NCBI GenBank assembly: GCA_000004985.1
Contig: GG738855.1
Length of the DNA: 64,000 nt
Source of the DNA: Naegleria gruberi
Lineage: Eukaryota
Reading direction: 5' to 3' (one strand)
Below the pieces are notes generated by a model. The model did no database searches. It was given only the letters and a program-made list of their open reading frames with translations, and was not told where the DNA came from. A program made the position numbers and the translations under genes. Positions within the stretch are counted from its first letter, which is position 1, and every line of letters starts with the position of its first letter. Below, one piece after another: positions 7,597 through 57,139 of this stretch.

Positions 7597-10500
7597 TTAT
7601 TTCTTTTTTCGTTTGAAAAATTGGAAAGCAGATGAGGAACCACTATCTGAAGAGGAGCCTCCCTTCTCAAGGGATTGAGTAAGCATTTCAATAATGTCGT
7701 CACAAGGAACATGAGACGATTTGGCAATATCTAATGGTGTTTTACCTTGCTTATTTTTCAAGTGTAAAACCTTGTACATTAATGTTTGTTTTGGTTCTAC
7801 TCTTGGACTCGATAGATTTGTAGTTGAAGCACTTCTACTATTTTCTCTTGGTGTTGAAAGGAGACCTCCTGAAGTTGGAGTGGTATTTTGATTTGGTGAT
7901 AAATTTGCAACAGAGCTAGCTGCAACACTAGGTCTCTTGTTCATTTGAACACCAACAATATTATACAGTGATAGGAGATATCTTACAGCAAATGTATTGC
8001 TGTCGCTACAAGCATATGCAAGACAAGTTTGATGTTTGTCATTATCTGGTTCCATCAACAACTCATTGAGGACTTCAATATTTTCTTGAGACTCTTCGTC
8101 ATATTTTTGTTTTTCTGCAAGCTTTTGTTCTGGTGTGAGCTCTACATTCTTTGGTGCTAATCTGAGGGCCGATCCTAATGTACTCTTTCTAGGTTGAAGT
8201 AGCTCATTAATAATCAATTGCATGGATTTCAAATCACCCTTAATTACACAATCGTGTAGAATATTTCTTCCATGATAATTTTGACTCTTCAAAACTTTAA
8301 TGAATTGCTCTCTAGAAATGTATGGCAAAATTGCCTCCAAAATTGGTTGTTTTCGTTTCAGTACACTGTTGTTGTTACTTTCTGTTGATGAATTGTTGGT
8401 TTGAGAATTATTCTTGCTTAGTTCAGGATTGAGTTTCTTAGCTCTCTCTGAAGGATCATTGTAAAACAAGTCACGAGCCTCTTGTTCACTCAAGCCATAG
8501 AATTTTTTAGCTGAGAGAATGAGTGTCTTGGTTGACCATCCCATTTGAGGAACAAGCAACTCCATGGCTTTGAACATAATATTCTTCTTCAATTGGAATT
8601 CATCTTGAAGGAAGTGACTAATGTGATTAGGGAATCTAGAACCATTTGTATTGGTTTTGGAATTGGCTGGAGAGGGTGATGAATTATTTTGAATTGGGCT
8701 TGATTTAATCTTGATAGAATCTTCAAGAAGGACACCTTGTTGATTACTGGTATAACCTCCTCCTGCCATTCCATTAATACCTGAAAGAGCAGCCAATGAG
8801 TCTGATCTCATTTTGAGTGCAGCAGGAAGCTTGAGAGGTTCTCTCTTCTTTCTTCTATCGTTTGTTAAGAGTTTGTTCTTATTTTCATAATTGACTTCAC
8901 CAGATTCACCAACAAACATTTCATCCAATTCTTGGAAAATATCAGCAGAAACGTCAGTATCACAACTAGAAACACTAGTTGTTGGTGATGGAGCTCTATT
9001 CGAAATTGGAGTATTATCACTATGTTCTGATGATTGTTTAACTGAGTCAACTCTAGGTGAGTCATATTTAGTTGATTCATTGATGGTATCCTCATCTTTT
9101 TCCTTGGACATTTCATGTTCGAGAAGGAATTCTTCAATCAAAAGTAAATCTTCATCTGGTACTTGAGATGATTCTCTCTTTGATTCTACCGATTTTTCAT
9201 CAGCAGCATTAATTACATCCTTTGTTGAGTTTTGTGAGGAGAGAGTTCTTGGTGAAGGTTGAGTTGGCACTTGTTGTACCTCAACTTCTCTCCCAACAAG
9301 ATTGAAGAGTGGAACACATCCTTTTTGATCCTTCTTTAGTAAAATAGCTCCCTTCTGAATGAGATAAACTATTCTATCCAATGGTAATTCGAAACAAGCA
9401 CGGTGCAACATGGTTTCACCTCCACGAATTGTAGTATCCAATGAAGCACCAAACAAAATGAGCATGTCACACACTGCAAAGCAACCTCTCTTCAATGCTA
9501 CATAAAATACATTGTATCCAAATTCATCATCCACTTGTTGAATAATCTTTTCCAATGCATTGTTATTATATGGAGATGAAGCTCCAGTAGCAGGAGATGA
9601 ACTAGTTGGTGAAGGAACATCTGCCTTATTCTTATTACCGAAAAAGCTCTTTCTTCCAGAGCCTCCTCCACTATTAGAATGTGGATTGGCCACAAGTTCT
9701 GATCCATTTCTAGCTCTTGAAACTCCTGTCTTGATTGTTGAACTCTTAATTTTCGTACACAAGAATGCACAGCTCTCAGTAGCATTAAAGAAGGAAGTAT
9801 AAAAGAGTGGAGTCATTTTCATGGCATCCGAAACAAATAAGAAATCAGGTCCACATTCATCAAATAACCATTCCATAATAACACTCTGATTGTACTTGGA
9901 TGCCAAGTGCATTAGTGTACACTTTTGAATAGAATTAAACTTGGTATTGAGTAAATATTTAGTCCACAATAATTTCAAAGATGGTTCCGTTGCAAATTTA
10001 AATTGTTTCCAAGTGTCGAGAACGTCCTCTTTCATGGAGGTAAATTCCTTCCTTGACATGACTTCAACTTCACGTGTAGGTGATCCAGTACTACTTGATG
10101 GACTGCCAAGAGATTGGAGGTCTGCGAATCTAGTACTGTTCCTGTTTAGTTTTATACTATTTCTATTAACACTGAGACTGTTACTGACAGTAAGAGTTGA
10201 TGATTCGTTACCACTCAATTTCATAGATCCAGTTGTAAAGAAGAAGAATCTAAAGTAGAGTAATTGTTTCAATCGGTAGAGAGAATGAATAGAAATGTGA
10301 TAGAGACCACTCAAGTCCATTAAAGCACTTCCCTTTGAAGATAATACCGAAGTTGTGGTATCTAAAATTATTGATTTGGCACTAGTTTCCGCAACTGTAT
10401 CTTTTTCAATCAATGGCTCAACTTGGCTGGTTTCGTTTGCTTTCGAATGCTTTCTGTTAACTTTCTTCTTCTTGGCAGATAAATGTTGTGATGATGGAAC

Positions 10501-11085
10501 AAAGCAATTCAACACCAACTCCTTCCAAGTATCTTCATCCAACGAAGAAGCATCTAAATTATCAAAGAATTGAGCCACTTTAACAATATCAATATCATTA
10601 TAAATTGTTGTACTATTTGTACTTCCGTGATAACTGTGAGTAGAACTACTTCTACTCAGAAAACCATTTCCACTCAACTCTCCCATATCATCGACCAGTT
10701 TACCAATTTGGTCTAAATTCATTGGAGTTATTGGAGATGAATAATTATTATTAACATTTTCAATGGATTGTCTGTTTGTTTGACTCGGTGTTATTGTTGT
10801 TGTTGATGGTGGCATCATTGGAGTAGTGTGATTATTATTATTTGATGAAGGAGTTGAAAATTGGTTATTATTATTTGGAGGAGAAGTGGTAGTTGAGTAG
10901 TGGTGGTTATCAGTTGTTGTTATTATTGAAGAAGTATTCGTCATTATGGAAGCCTTTCGAGGGGTAGAAGGAGAGTTAGCAGAGTTTAATGTAATGGTTT
11001 CATCGGTGGTGGTAGAAGTATTACTAATGGGCTGTTCAGGTTGAGTTATTCTGGATGATGATGTTGATGATTCTATTGAAGTCAT
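7597..11085 (-). CDS. Ser/Thr/Asn-rich ankyrin-repeat protein (1162 aa)
   Basis: Continuous ORF. Several ankyrin-like repeats: MHLASKYNQSVIMEWL, YNVFYVALKRGCFAVCDMLILFGASLD, GETMLHRACF, GRNILHDCVIKGDLKSMQLI, KQGKTPLDIAK. Extensive low complexity. Confidence 0.6.
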   Translation of the reverse strand: MTSIESSTSSSRITQPEQPISNTSTTTDETITLNSANSPSTPRKASIMTNTSSIITTTDNHHYSTTTSPPNNNNQFSTPSSNNNNHTTPMMPPSTTTITPSQTNRQSIENVNNNYSSPITPMNLDQIGKLVDDMGELSGNGFLSRSSSTHSYHGSTNSTTIYNDIDIVKVAQFFDNLDASSLDEDTWKELVLNCFVPSSQHLSAKKKKVNRKHSKANETSQVEPLIEKDTVAETSAKSIILDTTTSVLSSKGSALMDLSGLYHISIHSLYRLKQLLYFRFFFFTTGSMKLSGNESSTLTVSNSLSVNRNSIKLNRNSTRFADLQSLGSPSSSTGSPTREVEVMSRKEFTSMKEDVLDTWKQFKFATEPSLKLLWTKYLLNTKFNSIQKCTLMHLASKYNQSVIMEWLFDECGPDFLFVSDAMKMTPLFYTSFFNATESCAFLCTKIKSSTIKTGVSRARNGSELVANPHSNSGGGSGRKSFFGNKNKADVPSPTSSSPATGASSPYNNNALEKIIQQVDDEFGYNVFYVALKRGCFAVCDMLILFGASLDTTIRGGETMLHRACFELPLDRIVYLIQKGAILLKKDQKGCVPLFNLVGREVEVQQVPTQPSPRTLSSQNSTKDVINAADEKSVESKRESSQVPDEDLLLIEEFLLEHEMSKEKDEDTINESTKYDSPRVDSVKQSSEHSDNTPISNRAPSPTTSVSSCDTDVSADIFQELDEMFVGESGEVNYENKNKLLTNDRRKKREPLKLPAALKMRSDSLAALSGINGMAGGGYTSNQQGVLLEDSIKIKSSPIQNNSSPSPANSKTNTNGSRFPNHISHFLQDEFQLKKNIMFKAMELLVPQMGWSTKTLILSAKKFYGLSEQEARDLFYNDPSERAKKLNPELSKNNSQTNNSSTESNNNSVLKRKQPILEAILPYISREQFIKVLKSQNYHGRNILHDCVIKGDLKSMQLIINELLQPRKSTLGSALRLAPKNVELTPEQKLAEKQKYDEESQENIEVLNELLMEPDNDKHQTCLAYACSDSNTFAVRYLLSLYNIVGVQMNKRPSVAASSVANLSPNQNTTPTSGGLLSTPRENSRSASTTNLSSPRVEPKQTLMYKVLHLKNKQGKTPLDIAKSSHVPCDDIIEMLTQSLEKGGSSSDSGSSSAFQFFKRKKK

Positions 11086-11550
11086 CTCGTTTGTTTTATT
11101 TGAAATAATAATGTGTGTATATATATTCGAAGAAAGTATTACTCGAGGTGTTTTTGTAGAGCAAAATTTCTTCTTCTTGAAAGATAATATTATATCTTGT
11201 GATTTGGCAAACGGTTTTTGAATTTGATTTTTTTAACCGGAATGTTGGTGATGATTGTTAATTTGCGCCAAGTTTACTTGTGCTATTTTGTGTGGTGGAA
11301 AAATGAGAGTGCTGACACTAAACATGGACAAACCAAATGGGTTGTTTGATGCTAAGAAAGTTATTGAACTCTAACAATTAATTGGCTATTCGTTTCGTTT
11401 AGTTTATTTGATGGGATAACAAAATTTCTGCTTTTAAACAGTTTGAAAATCGATCGACTTAGACAATCATTAGTATTTAATGAGTTTCATGGATTTTCAT
11501 TCAAATATGTGTGGGGGTCATGGCGCAGTCGGTATTATTAATAGATTTTA

Positions 11551-11585
11551 GGGTAGGTAACGCTCTCAATCTACCTCAACGTAAC
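11551..11585 (+). repeat. R-repeat copy 1 (GGTAGG(G)TTGCGCTCTYAAG..CTCAACGTAAC family)
   Basis: Sequence gggtaggtaacgctctcaatctacctcaacgtaac. One of four direct copies inside the tRNA-Met insertion. Contains a ggtag/ctacc stem. Confidence 0.6.
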
Positions 11586-11615
11586 TTTAAATATAAACTT
11601 TATTTATTTTTAGAA

Positions 11616-11647
11616 AGGGTGGTTTGCGCTCTCAAGCAATGTTGCTC
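11616..11647 (+). repeat. R-repeat copy 2 (divergent, lacks CAACGTAAC tail)
   Basis: Sequence agggtggtttgcgctctcaagcaatgttgctc. Confidence 0.5.
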
Positions 11648-11685
11648 TTTAATGTACTGTTGCTATACTTTACATTGAATTGAAT

Positions 11686-12338
11686 TTATTGATTAATTAT
11701 TTCAACTTTTGAAGATTTCTTACTATTTTTCATACTATTAATAATTTTTAATTTTCTTTCTTTTCTTAATTCTTCATCATATTCAATTTCTTCTGTATAA
11801 AAACTAATATCACTATAATTTAAATTTGATTGTTTGGAATAATTTGGAAAATAATTATTTTCTGATTCATTAAATTCTTGAATTGTTTTTGATATTTTTT
11901 CAATTTCATTATCAATAAATTCATAAATTTGTTCATGTTTTTTAAAATTAATTTTCATTGATAAAATTAAATTTAAAAATAATAATCCTTTTCTAAAAAT
12001 AGATAAGGTAGGGTTGCGCTTTCATTAATACTCAACGTAACTTTTAAAATAAAAAACTTACCCAAAAATTTTACATTGAAAATTATCATCTTCAGATTTA
12101 AAATTAATTAAATTAATTTCATCTGATAAATTTGTTTCATCAATATGTTCTCTAAAATTTTCATTTGTTGTAAAAATTAAAAATGAATTTGAATTATGAA
12201 TTATATCTTCTCCTAATTCATCTGAAATTTCACTAATTCTAATTATTTGTAAATTTTTAATTATTGAATATAATCTTCCAAAATTAATACAAATTGGTGA
12301 ATGTTTACAATTTGATTTAATTATAAATGTATCATTAT
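11686..12338 (-). CDS. Spliced gene for a small Lys/Asn/Glu-rich protein nested between the tRNA-Met halves on the opposite strand (function unknown)
   Basis: Minus-strand exons complement(12062..12338) and complement(11686..11992), joined by a canonical intron GTAAGT...TTTTTAG (11993..12061). Splicing gives ...NFQCKIFGGKGLLFLNLILSMKINFKKHEQIYEF... in one frame. A possible mini first exon ATGACAG|GTAATT at complement(12582..12588) would place the tRNA 3' half and R4 inside intron 1 (12339..12581). That first exon is speculative. Confidence 0.45.
12006..12041 (+). repeat. R-repeat copy 3, lying inside an intron of the minus-strand nested gene
   Basis: Sequence aggtagggttgcgctttcattaatactcaacgtaac. 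It sits 13 nt from the GTAAGT donor (minus strand) of intron 11993..12061. Confidence 0.6.
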
Positions 12339-12356
12339 CTTTTAAATAATAAAATT

Positions 12357-12390
12357 AGGTAGGGTTGCGCTCTTAAGTATATCAACGTAG
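12357..12390 (+). repeat. R-repeat copy 4, abutting the tRNA-Met 3' half
   Basis: Sequence aggtagggttgcgctcttaagtatatcaacgtag. Its CAACGTAG tail runs directly into the tRNA D-stem GCGCG. Confidence 0.6.
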
Positions 12391-12443
12391 CGCGTAGGTC
12401 TCATAATCCTAAGGTCGTGAGTTCGATCCTCACTGACCCCAAC

Positions 12444-12449
12444 TTTTTT
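12444..12449 (+). terminator. Pol III oligo-T terminator after tRNA-Met 3' half
   Basis: A tttttt run starts 3 nt after discriminator A. Confidence 0.6.
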
Positions 12450-12988
12450 GCTAGTTGGATCTAACAAATTCTAGAATAGCACCATTTATTGAAACAGCTT
12501 GCCATACAAATTCTCTATCTCTTTTCAAGGCATTAATCAAAATTTTGTGGTTCAAGTTTGATCGATTCCTATGCTAATTACCTGTCATATCTAAATTGCT
12601 CTCGAACAAACCTCAATACTAACCAATCCTTGAAGGAGTTCAATGTCATTTCTCAATCTTTCAAGAAATAAACTGAATGGCTAATCCAGATGATTTCAGT
12701 CTTTCAATCACTTGATGCATATGTAAACAAGAACCAGTTCCGTCTTCTAAAGATTTATATCCATTAAAGCAGGTCTCAAGGCTGAATCACCTTAAAGGTG
12801 AAACAGTCCCTGAGCTTTAATACCCATTAGTATAATTACTTGTTCTCAATCTTGTTTTTATTAATTTGCAAGGTAACATCTTCAATTCATTAGATCCATA
12901 TGAATATGATCTTGGTCTAGAATCTTATTATTCTCTGAGAAGGATTTATGTTTTGCACGATTTTGCCTTAATTGCAACATACACACCA

Positions 12989-13071
12989 GCCCGCGTAGCA
13001 GAGTGGTCAAATGCGTAAGACTTAAGATCTTATCCCGAATGGGTTCGTGGGTTCGAACCCCACCGCTGGCA
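12989..13071 (+). tRNA. tRNA-Leu(UAA), type II with long variable arm
   Basis: Acceptor GCCCGCG/CGCTGGC with one C-T mismatch. D-stem GCA/TGC with loop GAGTGGTCAAA. Anticodon stem TAAGA/TCTTA and loop CTTAAGA (TAA). Variable arm CCCGAATGGG. T-arm GTGGG-TTCGAAC-CCCAC. Discriminator A. T-rich terminator follows. Confidence 0.7.
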
Positions 13072-13351: not shown

Positions 13352-14337
13352 TTAATCTTTACTGATATACCGAATTTCACAATCTTTAAAAAAAAATGAA
13401 ATATAACAAAAAAATCTACACAATCCTTCTAAGGTATCTAGATTTGTGCAATATATATCAACCTCATTAATTAATCTCTCACCCATTAGAATGAAGGCAA
13501 TATAAACTCTCTCGTAATTCATCATAAAAAATAAATTATTACTTGATCTCTTGTCCACACTTTTTTCGAAATGGTATTTCAGCATAGAAAAGAATAAATT
13601 CTTTACCTCAGTTTCATTTTCAAAATCACAATTATCCAAATTACGTTTTGAAAATTTACCATAAATATTATTTCCAATTACAATCATTTCTTCATCCAAT
13701 CAAACATTTTTTTGGTTGATACTTCTTGTTCTTTTCCTTGAGAGGAAGAAACCATTTTGATAATACTATTTCTATAATACTATCCTGAACAATATAACTC
13801 TACTGCTGTAGTATTACCCGTATGATCATATATGGTTTCCCACCACGAAGACGTCTTTTCCTCATCCAATGAACATTTATGCAAAAATTCAACCCATGGA
13901 TGTCAAGGTTCACTCTCTATCATGTCGAGAGGAATTTTATGATTAAATATTCCCAATTTTTCATTGAATTTATACTGAGGGTCTTTCTGATAAAACGTGT
14001 TTTCCTCAATTCCGAAGGTGTAAATTTGTGCATTATTTTTACTTAATTTTACAAAACTAAGGAGTGACTTAGGAATCATCCAACCATTGTGTAGGATTTA
14101 TAAACATGTATTGATGGCTGAACAACATGAGTATTATGTCTAAATGTACACAACCTCAGCCAATAAAAAGTCATCAATTTGTTATAATAGATATATATTA
14201 TGAGTGGTAAAATATTTATTTGCCAACAGTAGATGGTGATAGTTAAAATTGATCAACAATAGTTGCTCCACAAATTGAGGATCATCCACTACTGAAGCGC
14301 TTATGAAGTTTGTCGCACAAAAACGCAATCGATTATC
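13352..14337 (-). pseudogene. Fragmented coding region (possible decayed gene): protein-like segments in a single frame interrupted by in-frame TGA and TAG, plus a frame change
   Basis: Minus-strand translation gives MIVDNRLRFCATNF... (start ~14337), then ...NGWMIPKSLLSFVKLSKNNAQIYTFGIEENTFYQKDPQYKFNEKLGIFNHKIPLDMIESEP-TGA-HPWVEFLHKCSLDEEKTSSWWETIYDHTGNTTAVELYCSG-TAG-...MVSSSQGKEQEVSTKK. The ORF 13352..13699 (LDEEMIVIGNNIYGKF...) is in another frame. No canonical introns explain the breaks. Confidence 0.3.
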
Positions 14338-20518: not shown

Positions 20519-22004
20519 TTACATGATAGTACAACAACCCTTTTTACCTCCACCTTCACAGTTGGCAAGCTTCTTTTCTAATTCCTCAATTCTAGCCTTC
20601 AGCTTCTTTTCGTTTTCTAAAAGCTCAGCAATCTTTTCTAACCTTGGATCTCCTCTAGAAACTCTGAGTTTGTTCTTAATTTGCTTGGCTCTATCAGAAA
20701 AGTAGAGAGTGCTCAAGGTCTCTTCACTATTTACATCTGCTGAAGAAACACATGATATCATTACACAAAATGCATTACCTCCAATGGAATCTTTCAATAA
20801 CCGAGTCAGGATTGAATTTCTGTATGGTACAAAGTTTGTTTTCTTCACAAGGGCATTAATGACATTACCCAAGTTGGATAAACTGAGATTGATATTTGCT
20901 CCTTCCTTCAACCGGTCTCCTGTAGCTTCTGTTGATGAGGCTCTTTCACTACCAGCAAGATCGACCAGTGAAATCTTGTTGGATCTCAAACTGAGACCAT
21001 CTTCATCACCTTTATCAACTTGATCCATGTAAATTGTCAGAACAGCGTGAGATCTTGAGGAGAATTGATTCATTTTGGTTTCGCCAACAGTTCTCCTACT
21101 AGCTCCTTCATCCAACAACTCGTTCAATTCCTCTTCACTTCCGATTGGCCTTTCAATGAGATTTGTAACAATAATTCCCTTCACCTTATCTTCTCTAACA
21201 TCATATTTTAACTTTTCAGTTCTATTGTGGAGAAGATCGTGAATATTTTCATTATAAATTTCAATATATGAAGCCTTAATGGTAATATCCGTTTTCTTTT
21301 GTTCCTTTCTCACATATTCAAAGAGCTCTCTCACAAAACGAGTCATTATTCCTTGTTGTTGTTGATCTCCTTTCACACCTTCCATTGTGTAGGTTTTTCC
21401 ACTTGATGTTTGACCGTATGCAAAGATACAAGCCTGAATTCAAATACAACCTTAATGAAAAGATTAGTCTTTAAAAACATACATTATATCCCAATATAAA
21501 TCTCTCCAAACACATTGCTCCTGTAGCTTTATAAATTTCAGTTTGAGCAGAAGTTTCATCAAAAACTCCATCAAAGAAAAATTCCTTATCTTCCTTATCC
21601 TTTCTCACCAGTTTGATTTTTCCTTCCGATTTGCCTATCGATAAGCAAGAACTACTCTTGAGAGATAATTCTCTCTGATTCAATGGTCTTGATCTCACCA
21701 CAACTTTAATATTAGTCTCGTCAACTGCTGACACCATCGTATTGATAGCTTCTAAAGCAACTTGTTGTGACTTTTCTTCCTCCTTCCTAGGCGAAACAAT
21801 AATGGTTGTGGTACCAGCACTCAATTTTGAATTATCCTTCTTTTCATTATTTGTTGATGAAATTGCCGATCCAGGAGCACTTCCTGCCTTCTTCTTCTCT
21901 ACTGCAGTGGTTGTAGCAGTAGCAGTGGAGGGACTCTTTGCTGCTTTAGGATTTTTGTTATTAGTATTAGCAGCAGGCGCATTTGTTCCTTTTGATGCAA
22001 CCAT
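20519..22004 (-). CDS. Kinesin motor protein (479 aa) with C-terminal CaaX-like motif CTIM
   Basis: Exons complement(21483..22004) and complement(20519..21433). Intron 21434..21482 is GTATGT...TTCAG. Motor motifs IKVVVRSRPLNQRE, P-loop GQTSSGKTYTM (spans the splice), switch I NQFSSRSHAVLTIY, switch II LVDLAGSER. Neck coiled coil follows. The protein ends ...GGGKKGCCTIM*. Confidence 0.8.
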
Positions 22005-25945: not shown

Positions 25946-28900
25946 TTATTGTTGTAACTGGTTTCGGATTGTGTTTGCTTCATAAGAAGAGATAATACTT
26001 CTTCCTCTAGTTTTCCTAGTTACTGCTTCCTCTTTTTGTTCGATACTTTGTGCAGAGGTCCTCATAAATTCATTCATTTCTTCATCGGTTGGCATTGGTT
26101 TCGTGTGGTGTTCATCATTCAGCAAGTAACATTTTGTCATTCCCTTTCCTTTCACTTCGATATTCCTCTCCTCAAAAACAAATCCCAAATCATGAACTCT
26201 CTCATAGGTTGATCTGGTTATCTGTATTCTTCCTGAAAGAGATGTTGATTCCATTCGAGAAGCTGTGTTAACTGCATCACCCCACAAATCGTAGGCAAAC
26301 TTTTTGGTTCCAATCACACCAGCCACAACTGACCCAGTATTGATACCAATGAATGTATCACCTCTCTTCAATCGTTGGGCAACTGATTCAGGTAAGATAT
26401 TCTTCAATAGATTTTCAGAGTGTTTCTTCTCGTCTTCCAACAGAGCTGCTGCCTTTTTTTCTGAGGTGATATCCTTTATGGTTAAAATAATTAGAACGCC
26501 CTTTCCTGATACCTTAACTGTGAAAAGATTGAGTTTTGTTGGGAATTTTGTTCCATTTTTTCTTAAACATTCGGATTCTAATGAATCATGACCTCCACTA
26601 TCATTTCCTGAAAACTCATTTACGAGGGCACTCACTGATTTTCTGACAGATTCTTTTGTTTTCCCTTCCTCGAATATGGAATAGAAGGAGGTTCCAAGGA
26701 TTTCCTGTGTTGCAAGACCAAGCATATTAAGGGCTGGTGTGTTGATTAGTTCCACTTCTCCTTCTGTATTGATGATTATTGAACCATCAACACTTGAATT
26801 AATTACAGAGCATACGCCCGAATAAGATCCTTGTCCTTCATCTGATTGCCTTTCTGATTTTAGACTAAACTTATTAGACAATGGATCTGAGAATAGATTG
26901 TAGAGTGCTAAATTCTTCAATCTCTCATTGTTTTCGAGAGTTTCAATAGGAATATAATTCAATAGCATCTTTGTGTAGTAATATTGATTAGAATTCGACC
27001 CCATAATTGAGAGAATCAATTTACAAAAAATTAAAGAAATACAAGTACCCAAAATAGTAAATAACAATACAGAAACATAACTGGATTTCTGAAGAAACTC
27101 TTGCAAATTCTTGCATAAATGATGCTAGTTTTAGAGAGAGAGGATATGACCTAGCTTGATTAGTGTAATGTTCAAAAAACAAGGTACTAATTTCTTGCAT
27201 TGTAAAGTTGGTTGACTGGTATTTGTAGAATTTCTTAGTTAACTCAGACACTTTGGATGAAGTTGAAACAAATTCAGACATCATATATTCGACACCAATA
27301 CAATAACTATAGTAATTTTGCACATTAAATGTAAAATTATTTGCTTGCAAATATTCAGTACAATTATCTGAAACTCCAAATTTCAATGTCTTGTCCATCG
27401 ATGGATAGATACCAACAAGAGGTGTATCGTATGCTAAATATTATGGAAATTATCAGTAATTAAATTGAGGTTGAAACTTACGAATATTAATATTACCAAA
27501 TATCAGATCCGTATAATTAGACGAAAGTCCATCAATTTGATCCAAAAGAATGTGGCTCAGCTCGTCAAATGTAGAACTAGTTCTTAAAAACGGATGGGCA
27601 ATGTTAGTAGCCCCAAAGTTGTTGGTATTTCCTAAACCATAAACGGATAAAAGTTCTGATAAGTAGTATCCACAAATTTGTACAAAATAAATTACTCTAG
27701 CTCCAGCTTGAATATTATAATAAGTTTTGAGTGCGCTTACTGCATTTCCATTAATTTCATTATAAAACATTCCCAAACAAAATGGGTTGACTAAAACCAA
27801 AACCATGACTGAAACTATGAGGGTGTACTTGGCTTTGGTAATTTTCGAAATCAAACTGGAATCAAGTGAAGAGTCAATAGATGATTGCTTGGAAAGTGAC
27901 TGATATATTCTAGCTATCTTGTCTCTTGGAGTCTCCTTCTTGATTGTTTTTACCAATCTTTTAAGGTAGTACTGTCTGTAAAGAACAGTAATAATGAAGC
28001 ACATAGCGATTGGCAACAATGCTAAACTACCAGCTACGAGATAGATTTGAAAATACGATAATAATGAAGTTGTGGATAATTGGCTAGAATCTACATAATT
28101 CGAACAAAATGCAGACAGAACATCAAATGCATTATCTCTGTTACTCCAATAATACATGAAACTATAGTCCTGTATAGAATTCATGAAAGTACCATTAATA
28201 ACAGACCTAACGAGCTGATCTCTTGTTGATTGAGAAATTGTTGTGGAGTTGGACAATAACAATAAATCATTGAGAGGAAAACTTTCTTGGATTCTTTCTA
28301 AGAAGCTTTTCAGATTATTGGTAAATTCATTGACTGATATTCTTCTTATTTGCACTGTACCTGAATAGTATCCATTGTCTCTAATCGTAGGAATTAATGC
28401 TGTGTGTTCTCCTGCACCGTAACTATTTATGAAATTAGCAAAAGAGCTCAATAAACTTACGCTGTATAGATAGGAGCATCAAAAACACCTTTTTGTGCAA
28501 GTAATATCAAATCGTGTAGAACATTCTTGTCATTTTCCATTCTATGAAGATAGTTTTGGATATATTCCTTTAGTAAGAGTTAGAGAATGTTATATTGGAG
28601 GGATACTACTTACCTGAAAGGTTTCTGTTGGGAGACTATCATATTCTGTCTTCCAATCACTTCCATAATTAATATAATAATTAATTGCACTTTGCATACT
28701 TCTGACATTTCTTATTACAGACATTCCAACTTCCTCAGTCAAACAAGCAGAATTCAAGTTTACAACACCAACTCTAATCGAAGATCCAATGTAAATAGCA
28801 AAAGAAGCGCCTCCTAAACCAACACTGAAAATGATCACAAAAATTAAAATAAACAGACTGTTTCTCAAACTTTCGTTTGGTTTGTTCCTAATTCCATTCC

Positions 28901-31328: not shown

Positions 31329-34300
31329 TTATGCAACATTCTTTGCCTTCTTCATTCTGGCTCGTATGAAAAGTGCAATCACAACAGCAAGAAGAACACC
31401 AGCAACGCACACGACAACTACTCCACCAACTGATGAGGCTACTACAGCAATTAACACTGTGTTGTCGTTCACTAGGATTGGTTCTGAGTTTTCTGGTTCT
31501 CTTCCCTTTGTGTTTGCCTTTTTATAGTTTTGGTCAATTACTGCAAAGGAAGTCAAGTGACTAGTTCTGCAACTCATTGAAAAAGTAACAATATTTGAGG
31601 AGGGAGAAAATTTCAAATCATTAATTGTCGTTTCTATGCCGTCTGTCTTCCACTCCTTGTCTGAATTATCAAAAAACATGCAGGTGAAATTTAATAACGC
31701 ATTTGTATCTTTGGCAGTTGACAAATTGGAGAAGTACAATTCGATAGGTTCTTCCAGGTCAACTATTGGAATTTTCTCATCATTGATATTGAACATGGAA
31801 ATTGTTACCACTGAACTAATTGCATAAGCTTCCTCACTTGAAGGACCACTTGAAGAAGAAACTGAGCTAATCACCTTTACCACCTCAGTTGAATTAAATC
31901 CTCTTTCATTGATAAGATAATCTTTCACTGCTGTAGGAAAATTGACTGTTACTGAACTTCCAAACTTTGTGAACGTGATATTCTGGTTATTAACCTCTTT
32001 TAACGAATAAATCAATTCTTTCGTCTCAATATTTCCATTTTGTCCACCACATTTGAAGGTGTTATTGACCAATTCTAAAGTTCCAATACAGTAAGGAGTG
32101 GTACAATTTCTACCAATCCATCCTTCCTTACAAATGCAATTATCAGGTCCAATACATGTTCCTTGATTACAAACTCTTTGATCAATCGAAGGAATTCCAA
32201 AACAAATTGGAACAGAACAGTCCGAACCAGTATAATTGGCATTTCAGAGACAAGTATTTAATCCAACACACGAACCATGTGAAGAACAAACTGCCTCATT
32301 ATTTTCTGGTATTTCATTACATGAAACCATTTGACATTCCGAGCCAAAATACCCAACCTCACATTTACAAATGTTGAATGATTGGCATGAGCCCTTTCCT
32401 CTGCAAACTGATGAAGAATTACTTGATTTTCCATAGCAAGATGTGAAATTACATTGAGGACCTGAATAACCTTCCTTACAAAGACACGAATCCTTATTGA
32501 AACAAGTTCCGTGTGAAGAGCAAGCAGTCAACTCATTCTTTCCAATACCAAAACAATAGAACTGATCACATTGGTTACCATAATAACCTAATTTACAAGT
32601 GCAGGAATTAGGCGAAGAGCAAATTCCATTTGATGAACAAGTAGAAACGTTTCTATTAGAAAGTCCAAAACAAATTGGAATGTCACATGCAACACCAGTG
32701 AAATTTGCATTACATTCACAAGTATTGACATTGACACATGAGCCATTTCTAAAATTACAAACTGAAGAGTCAGTGGATGGGATTGAAAAACAAAGAGGAA
32801 GTTGACATGAATTTCCTGTAAAATTTGGATCACATTTGCAAGTGTTCAATTCTGTACAATTTCCATTTCCAGAACAAACTGAACTATTCGAATTCTTCAA
32901 ACCAAAACAATAGAAATTTTCACAATTATTACCAAAATAACCTGAATTGCAGTCACAAGTATTGAACCCGCTGCATTTTCCTCTTCCTGAGCAAACATTA
33001 GTTTCATTATTTCGAATTCCATAACAGGAAGTCAACTCACAATTAGATCCTTCATAGAACTCATTACAAATACACTTATTAGGTGAAACACACGTTCCTT
33101 TCCCACTACAAACTTTAGAATTGATGGCAACAATACCATTACACATTTGAATATCACATTCTGGTCCTCCATATCTATTCGAAAGTGAACAGTTACATGT
33201 ATTATATCCTACACATGTTCCATTTCTATTACAAACGTTTGGATCATTAGAAAGTTTCCCAAAACATACTGGAAAGCAAGGAGAAGGTGTTCCATCATCA
33301 TTACAAACTAATCTATGAAATTTCTTAATGGAAGTTCCATCAATGAATAGAAATTGATTATTATCTATCATTGTAATACCCATTATGCTTTTTAGAGTTG
33401 GAATAGTTCCATCTGGAAGAATAGCTTTTCCTCCAATACCAACAAGTGTTGAGATTATTCCATTGTCAGGAGAAACCATACGAATCCTTGAATTGTCTGT
33501 ATCTGCCACATATAAAGTGCCATCTGGAGCCAAAACTGCCGAATGTGCTCTATTTATCGATGCACTATATAATTGTTAAAAGAAACATGTATTCGATTTA
33601 GACTAAAGTGATGTTAACTTACCTTTTAGCTGGACCGCCATCTCCACTAAATGAAAATGATCCACTCCCATCTCCAACCAATGTTGAGATAATATCTGTC
33701 GCTTTGCTAACAACTCGTATAGCTCCACTGAAAGTGTCAGCAATCACCAAATCATCTTTTTCACTCAATGAAATTCCATAACTGAAATCGATTTGAGTTT
33801 GAGAGCCAACTACTTGACCATCCCCAGAATAACCTCTTGTTCCACCAATATAGGTATATATAAAACCTGTTGTTGGTTTGATATTTCTAATTCTGGCATT
33901 ATTGGTATCAAGAATGTAGACTAAACCAGAGGTATTACTGTAAGCAACAGAGTAAGGGGTGTCAAGTTTAGCTGCAATGGCTAGCTCTCCATCTCCAGTA
34001 AATCCTGCTGATCCAGTTCCTGCAATAGTTGAAATAAACCCATTAGAAACCTTTCGAATTCTATTGTTATAAGAATCTGCAATATAAACATCACCTTTGA
34101 ATGGATCTACAGAAACACCTCTTGGGAAATACAACTTTGCATTGATTGCCAGCACTCCATCTCCAGAAAACCCTCCACTTCCAGTTCCGGCTATGGTTGT
34201 AATCGTACCATTCAATTAATCTTTCGAATTTTGTGAGCATTTGCATCTGCAATATATAATCTCACCATTAGCATAGGCAATAGCATGTGGAAATAAAAAT

Positions 34301-53357: not shown

Positions 53358-53407
53358 NNNNNNNNNNNNNNNNNNNNNNNNNNNNNNNNNNNNNNNNNNN
53401 NNNNNNN
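53358..53407. other. Scaffold gap (50 N); identical-length gaps at 61557-61606 and 63221-63270
   Basis: Runs of n in the sequence. Confidence 0.95.
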
Positions 53408-56400
53408 TAGTGTCATCACAGACTAAACCTTTAGATAATAATCAAAGTGGTTCTGGAAATGACCNCAGTTTCATCACAAACTAAACCCTTGGATAACAAC
53501 CAAGGTGGTTCTGAAAAGAACCTAGATGCTATTCTTCACGCCATCACTTCATTGGGTGAGAGAATTAAACATCTTGAAGCAGTTCCACCCATCCTTCAAG
53601 AAGCTGATCAACTTGATGACAACTCTGATGAGGATTCTGCTGAAGATTCCACTGGTAAACATTGGGGTATGTCAACAATCAAGGAGATTAGAAGACACTA
53701 CGAAGTTGGCGACAGATTAGCCGATGGAGATGTCTTAAGTTTTGTTTCAGCCAAAACTCTTCGTCGTTATCAAACCAATGATGCTCTTTTGAATAGAGTT
53801 CAATCATTAATGGCTAGATTTGAATCCGTTATTCATAATCATCGTACTCATCCCCGTTTGCAAGAAATCCAATCAAAGGGCTTGCAAAAGATGATGGAAA
53901 TGTTGCATTTGAAATCTAGACTACTCCATTTCGCTTTAAGTCACCCAATGAACGTTGCTAACATCATTGAAATCACAGAATTAGTTTATCTTCTCTGTGA
54001 GGTCGAGAAAATCTTCTTGGAAGAAGGTTTGTTTGATAGTAATTTTGAGGTTGCCACCAATTTCATTCAACCATTCGTACAGAGCAATACGTTCGCTGAC
54101 ATAACCGAAAAAGCACGTAGTAAGAAGAGAGAGAAAGCTGTTATCAAGACTGCTTTTGTTGGAAAGATTCAAAAACCCAACAAAATGAAAGAGAAGTTGA
54201 ACAAACCCTACACTTCTCAACACAACAGCTACTCTAAGTCTTACAAGAGTAACTCCAATTTTCAAAAATCAGGAGACTCAAAACCAAAGTACAACAACAA
54301 CAACGGTGGAGGATCCTTCAGCAAGGACCTCTGACTTGGTGGGTTGTCGTCTTGGCAAGTTTGTAACTCAGTGGGAGAGTTACAACTTCAACCCATTCAT
54401 AGTGGATTGGATTCGGAATGGAGTTCCAATCTACTCAAATCCCACCCTTTGGAAAGAATTCAAGCAAAGGAAGAATTTCTCTCCAAAGGAGACCTCTTGG
54501 ATGGATCAAGAAATCCAAGAGATGTTGAGTTCCAATGTCATCGAACTTGGAAACAAATCTACGGTACTCAATCCAATAAACATTGTCCCCAAGAAGGGCT
54601 CAGATCAGTTTCGTTTTATTCTGGATCTCAGGAAAGTAAACTTGGGGATCAAGGATACTTCGTTCAAGATGGACAACATTCAAAAATGTTTGAAGTTTGT
54701 TCAGAAAGGAATGTGGGCAACAAAGATAGACCTGAAGAAAGGCTATTTTCATGTTCCCATCAGAGAGAGTCATCGACACCTTCTGGGATTCAAGTACAAG
54801 AGCCTTGTATACCAATTCAAATGCCTTCCATTTGGTCTAAGTCAAGCTCCCAGAAACTTCACCAAGATAATGAAGGAACTAATGACCAAGTGGAGAAAGC
54901 AGGGCATCTTGGTATTCATTTACATCGACGATATATTGATTCTAAGCAACCACAAGGAAACTACCCAACAACACACAGAGATAATCTTGAAAGACCTAGA
55001 AACATTAGGATGGATTATACAGAAGGAGAAAAGTGTGTTGACACCTTGTCAATGCATAGAATTTCTGGGTCTGGAATTGGATTTAATATCAGGTTTGGTA
55101 AAAATTCCACTCAACAAACAAGCCACTGCGATAAAACTGATCCAAGACTTCTTGTCAGCGAACCAACTGAACAGATATGTAGCTTGCAAGAAAGTGGCTC
55201 AGTTTCTTGGGAAGATGGAATTTCTAACCCTATCAAACCATTATTTTGCACCATTTCTGGCTCGTCTTCGAAAGGATATGGTGAAAGTAGTAAACGACAA
55301 ATCCTGGCACGCATCGATGAGAATATTCAGAGGTGCAACCAAAGACCTCAAGATATTGAAAACTCTGATTCAGGAAAACAGTGGAGTTCCATTCGAACTG
55401 AACTCAATGAACCCGATTCGAGTGAATTCAGATGCTTGCCCAACAGGTTATGGAATCGCAGAATCAACCATTACAATTGGAAGATTCAATTCCTCAGAGC
55501 ACATCAATGTCAAAGAGTTAAAAACACTCCTCATTTTCTTCACACAAGCAGATCAATTAAACCTTTATGGTCCTGGTCAAGCATTCGAGATAAGAGGCGA
55601 CAATGTAACAGCAATATCTTATATAAGGAGAGGTTACGGAGTCATCGAAGAACTCTCACAAATAGCCAGAGATCTCTACAAAATTCTAATGAGAAGAAAA
55701 TGGTGGATTTCCAAAGTGATTTATATTCCCTCAAAGGAAAACATTTTGGCGGACAGACTGAGTCGTCTAACAGAATGGAAATCCTCTCAAGAACTATTGA
55801 ATCTAGTTCAGACAGAATTTGGAAAACACCACGTGGACAGATTCTCAACATTGGAATCAACCACAACAATTCAATTCAATTCATGGATAGAGAACGACAC
55901 ATTTCTGAACCCATGGGAACAAAATCTGATGAGCTATTGTGCTCCTCCTCTGGGTCTGATATCTCAAGCTCTAGTTCACTGCATCAAGTCAGGAGCCAAA
56001 GCGACATTTGTGGTTCCAGATTGGCCCTCTTCGATATGGTTTCCAGTCTTGCTAAAGATATCAGAAAGAATGATAACTGTTTCGAGAAAGATGCTTATAA
56101 TAACGCCCTTATCAGAGTTGCAAGACAAGTTCGAGAATTCGAATTTCCTGGTTGTTCAAGTGCATGGCAAGTTATTCAAACAATGAGAGAAATCAGTATT
56201 CTCTCTTCAATAGGTGAAAAAACCTTCAGAACCTACAACAGGATTTATGGTGGTTTTCTTTGGTTTATCAATGTGTTCGATCTTACCATTGATAATCCTT
56301 TAGCTATTGAATATTACATCTCTTACCTTCTGGTTAATGTTCAAGGTTACAAAGCAAATACTGTGCAAGCAGCTATTCAATTCTTTGCTAACCTTGATGG

Positions 56401-57091
56401 CAGAACAATTAATATTTCCGTCTCTTACCCTAAAGTTAAAAAAGGTGTCCTTAAGCTTTATTCACTTTCGGATAAAGTTTCTCTTCAAAGAGATCCGATA
56501 ACAATCAAACATTTGACTGATTATTTGAAGTGCAAAGACAAAGTGGATAATTTCACTTTCCGTCTTACATCTGCTATTCTAGTAATTGGTTTTAGACTAT
56601 TTGCAAGACCTGGTGAGGTTGCGCGACTAAAATGGTCATATATCAAGATGCTTAAAAAAGGAAGAATCAAGATTGATCTCAGTGGTCATAAAACTGACTT
56701 CTTCCTTATTGAAAAACCAATTACTATCGAAAGGAATACTAAAGATCCTAATCTTTGCCCAATTTCAATACTAAAATCATACATGGATTTGGTTAGGAAT
56801 TTCAAAGATGCTGAGTCCCCATTATTTTCCTTCGAAAACGACAAATTCTTTGATTCAGATGGTATTTCAAAAATACTAAAGAATGCAGTGGGTATAGTAG
56901 ATCAAGGCGTAACAGTCTCAGGTCACAGCCTTAGAATAGGTGCTATCACAGAAGGACTCAGAAAGGGTATGTCTACAACTGATCTAATGGTCGGTGCAAG
57001 ACATAAAAAGGAAAAAAATTTATTTCCTTACCTTAGATCTGAAGGCCTAGCTGGCAAGAATTTCACTAACACTCTATTTTCTCTGGACTAA

Positions 57092-57139
57092 CCCATTGGT
57101 TTATCAACGAAATTCTTTATTGTTTTATTTGGAGAAATA
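57092..57139 (+). repeat. 48-bp direct repeat copy 1 (cccattggtttatcaacgaaattctttattgttttatttggagaaata), immediately after the recombinase ORF stop
   Basis: Identical copy at 57767..57814. The two copies are separated by ~627 bp. Confidence 0.8.

What the first reader, a model, noticed from the sequence alone, without database searches (positions are those of the whole stretch)
11686..12588. Spliced protein-coding gene nested antisense inside the split tRNA gene, with repeat copies and possibly the tRNA 3' half inside its introns
On the minus strand the exons complement(12062..12338) and complement(11686..11992) are joined by a canonical GTAAGT...TTTTTAG intron (11993..12061). The join is perfectly in frame (...QCKIFG|G|KGLLFLNLILSMKINFKKHEQ...). 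The existing 6-frame ORF MKINFKKHEQ... is therefore only the last exon of a ~190-aa K/N/E-rich protein. A candidate mini first exon ATGACAG|GTAATT at complement(12582..12588) would make intron 1 (12339..12581) contain both R4 and the entire tRNA-Met 3' half. A pol II gene interleaved with pol III tRNA halves on the other strand is an unusual arrangement.
Basis: partly seen in the sequence, partly recalled or inferred. Interest (0 to 1): 0.55.

Follow-up and report, generated by a model that had tools for sequence, protein, structure and literature searches.

The report
Alien gene cassette splits tRNA gene
An 855-base, extremely A+T-rich piece of foreign-looking DNA carrying a two-exon gene of unknown function sits in the middle of one of Naegleria gruberi's roughly 900 tRNA genes and has broken it, so this is an insertion that killed a spare tRNA gene, not a gene built around a working split tRNA.

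Summary
The window is Naegleria gruberi nuclear DNA. On the minus strand, two open stretches in the same frame (12338..12062 and 11992..11686) are separated by a 69-nt GTAAGT...TTTTTAG segment, and removing it gives a 193-residue product (...QCKIFGKGLLF...; the extra 'G' is an error). The stretch is real coding sequence: G+C by codon position is 48/39/4 over 192 codons. It is foreign to the host, because only two degenerate codons end in G/C where host usage predicts about 52.

The ORF lies inside an 855-bp, 20% GC block that cuts an otherwise perfect elongator tRNA-Met(CAT) gene in its D-loop. That leaves boxes A and B 899 bp apart, with 18 T-runs between them, so the tRNA gene is almost certainly dead. 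Four diverged, intron-like direct repeats (R1-R4) punctuate the block, and both ends of the block fall inside R units.

Exon A has no Met and starts in phase 1. R4 lacks the part that carries the splice donor in R3. The gene therefore looks 5'-truncated. The proposed 7-nt first exon is one of nine equally possible options.

No homolog, domain or related locus was found. This is a moderately interesting curiosity, and its donor is unknown.

The parts
11514..11533 (+). tRNA-Met(CAT) 5' half: acceptor 5' strand, D-stem 5' strand and D-loop up to GGT; contains box A
   Evidence: Joined to 12389-12441 it gives a perfect 73-nt cloverleaf (ARAGORN). ARAGORN and Rfam find no tRNA in the native sequence.
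11534..12388 (.). 855-bp inserted cassette, 20.2% G+C. The junction is ambiguous by the trinucleotide GTA (cgGTA|tt ... aacGTA|gc). No terminal inverted repeats and no longer target duplication.
   Evidence: Its ORF parts are the most A+T-rich 300-bp stretches of the 64 kb (15-17% GC, against flanks of 27-33%). No other copy in the window.
11536..11612 (.). R1 repeat unit (core 11550-11570), full length, abutting the tRNA 5' half
   Evidence: the repeat finder family D1 and pair D6; alignment A1.
11613..11685 (.). R2 repeat unit (core 11616-11636), the most diverged copy. On the minus strand it runs GTAAAGT...AAATAAAG and lies after the stop codon.
   Evidence: plus reading of the sequence.
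11686..11992 (-). Exon B (last exon): 101 codons plus TAA stop at 11688..11686. Contains the only Met codons; the 90-aa six-frame ORF starts at 11958.
   Evidence: GC3 is 4%.
11993..12061 (-). R3 repeat unit, which is the 69-nt candidate spliceosomal intron (GTAAGTTT...TTTTTAG; 27.5% GC; three in-frame stops)
   Evidence: Its donor octamer GTAAGTTT is identical to that of the inferred, unvalidated host intron at 27481. No RNA structure beyond shuffles.
12062..12338 (-). Exon A: 92 codons, starts in phase 1, contains no Met, GC3 = 0 of 97 codons
   Evidence: the ORF listing finds no ATG/GTG/TTG-initiated ORF of 40 aa or more here.
12339..12388 (.). R4 repeat unit (core 12357-12377), cut at ...CAACGTA by the tRNA 3' half. 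On the minus strand it supplies the ...TTTAAAAG acceptor in front of exon A, but it lacks the segment that carries GTAAGT in R3.
   Evidence: direct repeat D5 (11988-12020 and 12339-12371).
12389..12441 (+). tRNA-Met(CAT) 3' half: D-stem 3' strand, anticodon arm, T arm with box B, acceptor 3' strand and discriminator A. A T6 terminator follows at 12444-12449.
   Evidence: Partial Rfam tRNA match at 12386-12435, 25.6 bits. Sequence read.
12582..12588 (-). Listed for completeness only; it is not supported.
   Evidence: It is one of nine in-phase ATG...GT[AG] options between 12339 and 13400.

Best explanation
An 855-bp block of compositionally foreign DNA was inserted into the D-loop (after G-G-T, before A21) of one copy of the Naegleria gruberi elongator tRNA-Met(CAT) gene.

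Shown:
- The two tRNA pieces fit without loss or gain apart from a shared GTA.
- The block is 20% GC and has no terminal inverted repeats.
- Its minus strand carries a true coding sequence with almost one codon per amino acid, all A/T-ending.
- That coding sequence is interrupted by a 69-nt unit (R3) with host-type GT...AG intron ends.
- Three further diverged copies of the unit (R1, R2, R4) lie in the block, and both block ends fall inside R units.

Inferred:
1. The insertion inactivated the tRNA gene. Pol III box A and box B are now 899 bp apart and 18 T-runs lie between them. The loss is harmless because the genome holds about 900 tRNA genes.
2. The block arrived recently from an unidentified, ultra-A+T-rich donor whose genes use spliceosomal introns of one family (R). 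Its synonymous sites (2% GC) are far from the host's neutral level (23-33% GC), and the tRNA halves carry no visible damage.
3. The block is a fragment of a larger gene, broken inside an R-type intron. Exon A starts in phase 1 behind an acceptor, has no Met, and R4 lacks the donor-bearing part. At this locus the ORF is therefore most likely a 5'-truncated passenger. If transcribed by read-through, R3 would be spliced and yield the 193-residue C-terminal product, or the 90-aa Met-initiated part of exon B.
4. The junctions (3-nt microhomology, no TIR, no transposase) fit end-joining capture or recombination of a DNA fragment or circle at a break in the tRNA gene better than they fit a classical transposase.
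For: Organism: the neighbouring 1162-aa ORF is 100% identical to an NCBI Naegleria gruberi protein on a 613-kb contig.

tRNA:
- The joined halves give a perfect tRNA-Met(CAT).
- Boxes A and B are 899 bp apart, with 18 runs of T>=4 in the insert, the first only 13 nt in.
- N. gruberi has 924 tDNAs (PMC2888827).

Coding signal:
- GC by codon position is 48/39/4 (P = 6.5e-10).
- The open-stretch lengths exceed shuffles.

Foreignness:
- GC3 is 1-7%, against 16-62% for the other open stretches of 80 codons or more in the window (20-43% for the long ones taken as genes).
- 4 codons end in G/C where about 52 are expected (P = 3.7e-21). All Leu are TTA, all Glu GAA, all Asn AAT, all Phe TTT.
- The ORF blocks are the lowest-GC 300-bp stretches in 64 kb.

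Intron:
- GTAAGTTT...TTTTTAG, 69 nt.
- Host introns validated by domain continuity are 49 and 58 nt with GTATGT/GTAAGT...YAG.
- The only GTAAGT in the block sits at the ORF break.

R family: four copies here and none elsewhere in the window.

Truncation: no Met in exon A, and R4 is cut at the junction.
Against: - No donor or second copy was found, so 'foreign', 'recent' and 'fragment' rest on composition and anatomy alone.
- A spliceosomal-type intron argues against the obvious A+T-rich donor, the mitochondrion, and no mitochondrial or other protein matches.
- The R copies differ by 20-35%. If they duplicated in place the insertion would be old, and the intact tRNA halves would then need another explanation, such as gene conversion or function.
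- All four R cores lie at 3n spacing in the ORF frame, which this model leaves as coincidence (about 1 in 27).
- An intact 193-codon frame with a clean intron is also what a functional gene would look like.
- No transcript data could be consulted.
Confidence: 0.55

Rival explanations
1. One reading: a functional host pol II gene of three or more exons, whose first exon lies upstream of the tRNA 3' half. The tRNA piece and R4 would then be intronic. The gene makes a ~190-aa K/N/E/I-rich protein of unknown role.
For: - The frame is intact across 193 codons with strong codon periodicity.
- R3 has host-type splice signals.
- R4 offers a homologous acceptor in front of exon A.
- In-phase ATG...GT combinations do exist upstream.
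Against: - Nine alternative start exons fit equally well. The proposed donor GTAATT is weak, and only one strong donor (GTATGT at 12982) lies within 1 kb upstream.
- Codon usage is unlike any host gene in the window.
- No protein in the 5.8-billion-sequence collection, which does hold N. gruberi proteins such as P0001, shares any part of it.
- No paralog or ortholog exists anywhere.
Confidence: 0.2
2. An active, previously undescribed mobile element that targets tRNA genes. The R units are its terminal and internal recognition or intron-like repeats, and the ORF is its (accessory) protein. It may be mobilised through a circular intermediate, possibly in trans by a recombinase such as that of the DIRS-like retroelement in the same window.
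For: - The tRNA gene is cut precisely, with a 3-nt repeat (GTA) at both junctions.
- Both ends lie in R units in direct orientation.
- The GC-rich R core is conserved in an ultra-A+T background.
- A DIRS-like element with reverse transcriptase and Dam-like methyltransferase domains lies at 54.2-56.2 kb.
Against: - The R copies are only 65-85% alike, unlike the termini of a recently active element.
- There is no second copy of the R units or the ORF in 64 kb, and the neighbouring tRNA-Leu is untouched.
- The ORF has no recombinase, transposase or nuclease signature.
- The ORF lacks a start codon in its first exon.
Confidence: 0.12
3. A functional disrupted tRNA gene: either a giant D-loop intron or two separately expressed halves joined at the RNA level, as in Cyanidioschyzon or archaeal split tRNAs. 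The antisense ORF would play the part of an intron-borne homing-type gene.
For: - The halves are undamaged and together form a canonical tRNA followed by a T6 terminator.
- Non-canonical D-loop introns exist in other lineages (abstract of PMC3728597).
Against: - 18 pol III terminator-like T-runs lie in the insert, and boxes A and B are 899 bp apart.
- No bulge-helix-bulge forms at the junctions. The flanks are direct repeats, not complementary, and duplex energy is no better than shuffles (P = 0.24).
- Rfam finds no group I or other ribozyme, even at E <= 10.
- There are no homing-endonuclease motifs.
Confidence: 0.03
4. There is no gene at all: the open frames and splice-like ends are chance features of low-complexity A+T-rich DNA.
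For: - Shuffled versions of the block give open stretches of about 56-61 codons on average, so long ORFs are less rare here than intuition suggests.
- There are no homologs.
Against: - Two adjacent same-frame stretches of 95 codons or more occur in at most 0.025% of shuffles.
- G+C is confined to codon positions 1 and 2 (P = 6.5e-10).
- The sequence contains no tandem or trinucleotide arrays of note.
Confidence: 0.02

Closest known systems
Capture of organellar or other foreign DNA at chromosomal breaks (NUMT-type insertions; established knowledge, not read here)
   Same: The insertion is precise, with only a few bases of microhomology. It has no inverted repeats and no transposase. Its base composition differs sharply from the host's and has not drifted towards it. 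The passenger ORF may be truncated.
   Different: No donor could be identified. The ORF matches no mitochondrial or other protein. It also contains a spliceosomal-type intron, which an organellar donor would not have.
Disrupted tRNA genes: ectopic or multiple introns and permuted genes in Cyanidioschyzon merolae (PMC3728597, PMC3978253; abstracts), and archaeal split tRNAs (own knowledge)
   Same: A tRNA coding sequence is interrupted at a non-canonical position (the D-loop), and the pieces fit exactly.
   Different: Those interruptions are short and are removed through a bulge-helix-bulge motif. Here the interruption is 855 nt, full of pol III terminators, without that motif or complementary flanks.
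Protein genes nested in intervening sequences of RNA genes: homing-endonuclease genes in nuclear rDNA group I introns of Naegleria and Didymium, some antisense and some with a spliceosomal intron (own knowledge; PMC5805870 mentions Naegleria homing endonucleases)
   Same: An ORF, possibly with a spliceosomal intron, lies inside an intervening sequence that interrupts a structural RNA gene, in the genus best known for such elements.
   Different: There is no ribozyme and no His-Cys box, LAGLIDADG, GIY-YIG or HNH signature. The host gene is a tRNA gene, not rDNA.
tRNA-gene-targeting mobile elements: Dictyostelium TRE and DGLT-A and yeast Ty3 (PMC6101501 abstract), and Dada DNA transposons (own knowledge)
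   Same: A tRNA gene is the landing site.
   Different: The retrotransposons insert beside the tRNA gene, not inside it, and Dada elements have inverted repeats, 6-7-bp duplications and a DDE transposase. None of these features is present here.
Introner-like elements: families of similar, self-propagating spliceosomal introns (own knowledge)
   Same: The R units are a family of about 70-nt sequences. They have GTAAGT-like 5' ends in 2 of the 3 copies that keep that end, and AG 3' ends in 3 of the 4 copies (R1 ends ...TAAT at the cassette junction). One of them interrupts a coding frame cleanly.
   Different: The copies are all within 855 bp and 15-35% diverged, with none elsewhere in 64 kb. 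Genome-wide spread could not be tested.

Membership tests
U2-type spliceosomal intron in a protein-coding gene (R3, 12061..11993) | GT...AG termini with the host's extended donor consensus | tested here: met
   The segment runs GTAAGTTT...TTTTTAG. Validated host introns have GTATGTTT...TTCAG and GTAAGTTA...TATAG, and a further inferred one starts GTAAGTTT.
U2-type spliceosomal intron in a protein-coding gene (R3, 12061..11993) | Removal restores one continuous reading frame with coding properties on both sides | tested here: met
   The spliced frame is open for 193 codons. The same GC3-depleted codon pattern is seen in both exons.
U2-type spliceosomal intron in a protein-coding gene (R3, 12061..11993) | Length within the host range and a recognisable branch site | tested here: inconclusive
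   The segment is 69 nt, against 49 and 58 nt for the two validated host introns. Only TTAAT-like candidates are present, and no host branch consensus was available.
U2-type spliceosomal intron in a protein-coding gene (R3, 12061..11993) | Spliced transcripts exist | not testable with these tools
   No RNA-seq or EST data are accessible. The look-up of encoding contigs has none of the four proteins of this scaffold that were tried on record.
Complete, expressible protein-coding gene | An initiation codon at the head of the reading frame | tested here: not met
   The 98-codon open stretch of exon A has no Met, and no ATG/GTG/TTG ORF is listed there. The proposed mini-exon is one of nine chance-level options.
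Intron-containing or split tRNA gene processed by the tRNA splicing endonuclease | The exons join into a canonical cloverleaf | tested here: met
   ARAGORN finds a 73-nt tRNA-Met(CAT) in the joined halves.
Intron-containing or split tRNA gene processed by the tRNA splicing endonuclease | A bulge-helix-bulge motif at the junctions, or complementary flanks that bring the halves together | tested here: not met
   Folds of mini-precursors place the junctions in or next to a helix, not in 3-nt bulges. Duplex energy of the flanks is no better than shuffles (P = 0.24). The flanks are direct repeats.
Intron-containing or split tRNA gene processed by the tRNA splicing endonuclease | A precursor that RNA polymerase III can transcribe | tested here: not met
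   There are 18 runs of T>=4 (7 of T>=5) on the tRNA strand inside the insert, the first 13 nt in. Boxes A and B are 899 bp apart.
Group I intron carrying a homing-endonuclease gene | A ribozyme core detectable by covariance models | tested here: not met
   Rfam 15 at gathering score on the window, and at E <= 10 on 11400-12700, reports only the tRNA 3' half and noise.
Group I intron carrying a homing-endonuclease gene | An endonuclease motif (His-Cys box, LAGLIDADG, GIY-YIG or HNH) | tested here: not met
   No such Pfam family appears at E <= 10. No PDB relative appears at E <= 10 apart from a 12-bit TPR match. The 'CKHSPICIN' resemblance to a His-Cys box seen by eye lacks the conserved His and Cys set.
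DNA transposon or LTR element that targets tRNA genes | Terminal inverted or long terminal repeats, a target-site duplication of fixed length, and a transposase, integrase or reverse transcriptase | tested here: not met
   No inverted repeat lies at the ends. Only GTA is shared at the junctions. No enzyme domain is found.
NUMT or captured foreign DNA | Junction microhomology, no element termini, and donor-type composition | tested here: met
   The junctions share GTA. The block is 20% GC with GC3 of 2%, against host values of 33% and 20-43%.
NUMT or captured foreign DNA | An identifiable donor sequence | tested here: not met
   No protein relative in 5.8 billion sequences by word-seeded search, or in 1.84 billion by exhaustive search of exon A. 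None in IMG/VR, phages, plasmids or prokaryote genomes. The rDNA plasmid is excluded by composition, its non-rDNA part being 36.7% GC (PMC5805870). The mitochondrial genome DNA itself could not be searched.
Introner-like element family (R units) | Many similar copies dispersed as introns through the genome | not testable with these tools
   Only this 64-kb window of the genome is available. There are four copies in the block and none elsewhere in the window. Seven metagenome hits to the core are chance matches in unrelated GC-rich contigs.

The most novel reading that the evidence does not exclude
The block is one copy of an undescribed kind of Naegleria mobile element. It would insert inside tRNA genes, carry its own family of intron-like repeats (R) so that its gene can be expressed from the host's splicing machinery, and come from, or be maintained in, an ultra-A+T-rich compartment. 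Under this reading the R units are both the recombination ends and the introns of the element.
Probability: 0.1. Interest if true: 0.65.

Novelty: new member of a known kind. Interest (0 to 1): 0.35.

Why it matters
If the main reading is right, this is a clean natural example of a tRNA gene acting as a landing site for foreign DNA in a free-living excavate. It is caught early enough that the passenger still shows its donor's extreme codon usage and its own introns. That makes it a marker for tracing an unknown A+T-rich donor (a virus, plasmid, symbiont or unusual genomic compartment) in Naegleria.

It is also a warning for annotation in three ways:
- tRNA finders miss the broken gene.
- Gene finders missed the ORF.
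- A 'split tRNA' reading would be wrong.

If the less likely mobile-element reading is right, it would add a new class of tRNA-targeting element with self-carried introns. Nothing here bears on a long-standing open question.

Tried and rejected
1. Homology. A word-seeded search of the spliced 193-aa product found nothing. The exhaustive HMMER search of exon A returned one hit, P0002, at E = 2.3e-12. P0002 is a BRCA2 protein with 15 BRC repeats, and the score is the sum of 13 weak matches to one repeated unit. A single unit gives 27.7 bits, and exon A does not match the Pfam BRC model. I rejected it as an artefact.

2. Pfam, PHROGs, NCBIfam and PDB gave nothing above thresholds.
   - A weak DUF7583 match (E = 0.0074) survived a 9-shuffle control, but it is below the family cutoff and the family has no known function or literature. 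It remains an open lead.
   - The TSP_NTD match of exon B is probably a helical, compositional match. It was not controlled.

3. Structure. AlphaFold on exon A alone gave pLDDT 44, which is unusable, so no fold search was run.

4. His-Cys box endonuclease idea (from 'CKHSPICIN'): no support.

5. Group I intron or other RNA family: none.

6. R units as structured RNA: z-scores were -0.2 to -0.9.

7. R units as tRNA-derived sequence: local alignments were no better than shuffles (P = 0.07-0.97).

8. R relatives elsewhere: none in IMG/VR, and seven chance hits in metagenomes.

9. Donor candidates:
   - The rDNA plasmid was rejected on composition.
   - Bacterial plasmids, phages and prokaryote genomes gave no match.
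   - Mitochondrial proteins gave no match.

10. Exons A and B as duplicates of each other: no similarity (E = 0.12).

11. Synteny and annotation look-ups failed, because none of the four proteins tried from this scaffold is on record in the contig index.

12. Translational bypass of R3 (take-off GGG, landing GGA 72 nt on) was considered. I set it aside as far less parsimonious than splicing in a nuclear gene.
Full report
ORGANISM AND SETTING. The 1162-aa ORF next to the finding (7597-11085, minus) is 100% identical over its full length to an NCBI 'predicted protein [Naegleria gruberi]' from a 613-kb contig. The window is therefore N. gruberi nuclear DNA, 30-40% G+C throughout. ARAGORN and Rfam find a single intact tRNA gene, tRNA-Leu(TAA), at 12989-13071.

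THE OBSERVATION. On the minus strand, the frame that contains the six-frame ORF MKINFKKHEQ... is also open from 12354 to 12061. The two open stretches (98 and 111 codons) are in the same frame. They are separated by 69 nt (12061..11993) that begin GTAAGT, end TTTTTAG and hold three stops. Joining 12062 to 11992 gives ...NFQCKIFGKGLLFLNLILSMKINF..., 193 codons to the TAA at 11688..11686. Everything else is as described.

IS IT MORE THAN CHANCE? Open frames in this A+T-rich DNA are less rare than one might think. Shuffles of the block give a longest open stretch of 56-61 codons on average. Even so, a stretch of 111 codons appears in only 0.2-0.7% of shuffles, and a second stretch of 95 or more in at most 0.025%.

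The stronger test is codon periodicity. Over the 192 codons, G+C falls 48/39/4 on positions 1/2/3 (chi-square P = 6.5e-10). Exon A has no G or C at any of its 97 third positions. No tandem or trinucleotide arrays explain this. The hexamer GTAAGT occurs 25 times on both strands of the window, and the only copy in the block lies exactly where the upstream frame closes. The sequence is a genuine coding sequence interrupted by an intron-like segment.

THE INTRON AGAINST HOST INTRONS. I inferred short host introns as GT...AG segments needed to link long open frames, then checked two by domain continuity:
- Removing 21434-21482 (49 nt, GTATGTTT...TTCAG) gives an uninterrupted kinesin motor domain across the junction.
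- Removing 33565-33622 (58 nt, GTAAGTTA...TATAG) gives NHL-repeat matches at and across the junction.

A third inferred intron (27434-27481, 48 nt) starts GTAAGTTT, the same octamer as R3. R3 therefore has the termini and roughly the size of N. gruberi introns. A branch site could not be judged, and no transcript data are available.

THE ORF IS FOREIGN TO THE HOST.
- Open stretches of 80 codons or more elsewhere in the window have GC3 of 16-62% (20-43% for the long ones taken as genes). The two halves here have 1% and 7%.
- Only four of 192 codons end in G or C, and two of those are ATG. All 14 Leu are TTA, all 22 Glu GAA, all 24 Asn AAT, all 14 Phe TTT, and 18 of 19 Lys are AAA. Host synonymous usage applied to the same protein predicts about 52 G/C-ending codons (P = 3.7e-21).
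- The exons (15-17% GC) are the most A+T-rich 300-bp stretches in the 64 kb. Adjacent intergenic DNA is 27-33% GC and host introns are 23-25%.

Synonymous sites far below the host's neutral composition argue that the sequence has not been in this genome for long, or is held there by an unknown force.

WHAT THE ORF SITS IN. Joining 11514-11533 to 12389-12441 gives a perfect 73-nt elongator-type tRNA-Met(CAT), followed by a T6 terminator. The 855 bp between the halves (11534-12388, 20.2% GC) interrupt the D-loop. The junctions share only GTA (cgGTA|tt...aacGTA|gc). There are no inverted terminal repeats.

On the tRNA strand the insert contains 18 runs of four or more T, the first 13 nt in, and it separates box A from box B by 899 bp. 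A pol III precursor spanning it is not credible. Folds of mini-precursors give no bulge-helix-bulge, and the flanks pair no better than shuffled sequence (P = 0.24). Rfam finds no ribozyme even at E <= 10. With 924 tDNAs reported for N. gruberi (PMC2888827), loss of one copy should cost nothing. The simplest reading is a tRNA gene killed by an insertion, not a working split tRNA.

THE R REPEATS. There are four direct copies, with cores at 11550, 11616, 12006 and 12357. The consensus is roughly AGGTAGGGTTGCGCTCTyAA-N6-8-TCAACGTAAC with A+T-rich tails. They occur only in the block.

Read on the minus strand they look like introns:
- R3 is GTAAGT...TTTTTAG.
- R2 is GTAAAGT...AATAAAG.
- R4 ends ...TTTAAAAG directly in front of exon A, at the position homologous to the R3 acceptor.
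- R1 has ATAAAGT at the donor position.

R1 abuts the tRNA 5' half. R4 is cut by the tRNA 3' half at ...CAACGTA and so lacks the 25 nt that carry the donor in R3.

The R units are not structured RNAs, and they are not detectably derived from either tRNA. Their GC-rich core is conserved in a background that has lost nearly all unconstrained G and C, which suggests the core matters to something. I cannot say what. All three spacings between cores (66, 390, 351) are multiples of three, and each core reads stop-(E/K)-R-x-P in the ORF frame. I leave this unexplained (about 1 in 27 by chance).

THE 5' END OF THE GENE. Exon A has no Met codon, and no ATG/GTG/TTG-initiated ORF is listed there. It begins in phase 1 behind the R4 acceptor. 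Its donor is weak, and the only strong donor upstream is GTATGT at 12982. The A+T-rich, GC3-depleted signature stops at R4, and the DNA beyond it is host-like (33% GC). I therefore think the block is a fragment of a larger gene broken inside an R-type intron, and that the ORF here is a 5'-truncated passenger. A functional gene with a recruited upstream exon is the main rival.

WHAT THE PROTEIN IS. Unknown.
- There is no relative in 5.8 billion proteins.
- The one hit of the exhaustive search is a repeat-inflated artefact on a BRCA2 protein.
- No Pfam, PHROG, NCBIfam or PDB match reaches threshold.
- A sub-threshold DUF7583 match (E = 0.0074) is not reproduced by nine shuffles, but it leads nowhere.
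- The AlphaFold model is unusable.
- The collection searched holds N. gruberi proteins (P0001), and none shares any part of this ORF, so it appears not to be annotated as a gene.

WHERE IT CAME FROM. Unknown.
- No relative was found in IMG/VR, phage, plasmid or prokaryote collections.
- The abundant rDNA plasmid is too GC-rich: its non-rDNA part is 36.7% GC (PMC5805870).
- Mitochondrial DNA would fit the composition, but no mitochondrial protein matches, and an organellar gene would not carry a spliceosomal-type intron.
- The DIRS-like retroelement elsewhere in the window is 40% GC, so this block does not resemble that host transposon either.

VERDICT. The locus is a moderately interesting curiosity because of its extreme codon usage and its private family of intron-like repeats. 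It is a single, unannotated, homolog-free locus whose expression and origin cannot be tested with the tools at hand.

Noticed in passing
window 53400-57100 (+): A DIRS-like retroelement. ORF 54201-56183 has a reverse-transcriptase domain (E = 4.7e-26) followed by a Dam-like methyltransferase domain that is below Pfam's cutoff (E = 2.7e-5, 24.4 bits against 28.1). A second, 918-codon open frame (54335-57088) overlaps it in another frame, as in DIRS elements. The region is 40% GC with a strong A-over-T skew.
   Followed up: partly
window 11550, 11616, 12006, 12357 (R cores): All spacings between the four R cores (66, 390, 351 nt) are multiples of three. In the ORF frame each core reads stop-(E/K)-R-x-P. 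No explanation; about 1 in 27 by chance.
   Followed up: partly
window 12061-12354 (-): Exon A gives a sub-threshold Pfam match to DUF7583 (E = 0.0074, 16.8 bits against a cutoff of 27). None of nine shuffled versions reproduces it. The family has no known function and does not appear in the paper library.
   Followed up: partly
P0002 (hit): The only hit of the exhaustive protein search is a 1318-aa BRCA2-like protein with 15 near-identical BRC repeats. Its E-value of 2.3e-12 comes from summing 13 weak matches to one repeated unit, which shows how tandem repeats inflate whole-sequence scores.
   Followed up: yes
window 21434-21482 and 33565-33622 (-): Two short host introns (49 and 58 nt, GTATGT/GTAAGT...YAG) were validated by uninterrupted kinesin-motor and NHL-repeat domains across the junctions. 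They are useful as a local standard for N. gruberi splice signals.
   Followed up: yes
window 12989-13071 (+): An intact tRNA-Leu(TAA) gene lies 547 bp downstream of the broken tRNA-Met, on the same strand. The insertion hit one member of a small tRNA gene pair and left the other untouched.
   Followed up: no
window 13352-13699 (-): A 115-codon A+T-rich ORF (25% GC, no codon periodicity, no Pfam match) lies just beyond tRNA-Leu, on the same strand as the cassette ORF. It is unclear whether it is a gene.
   Followed up: partly
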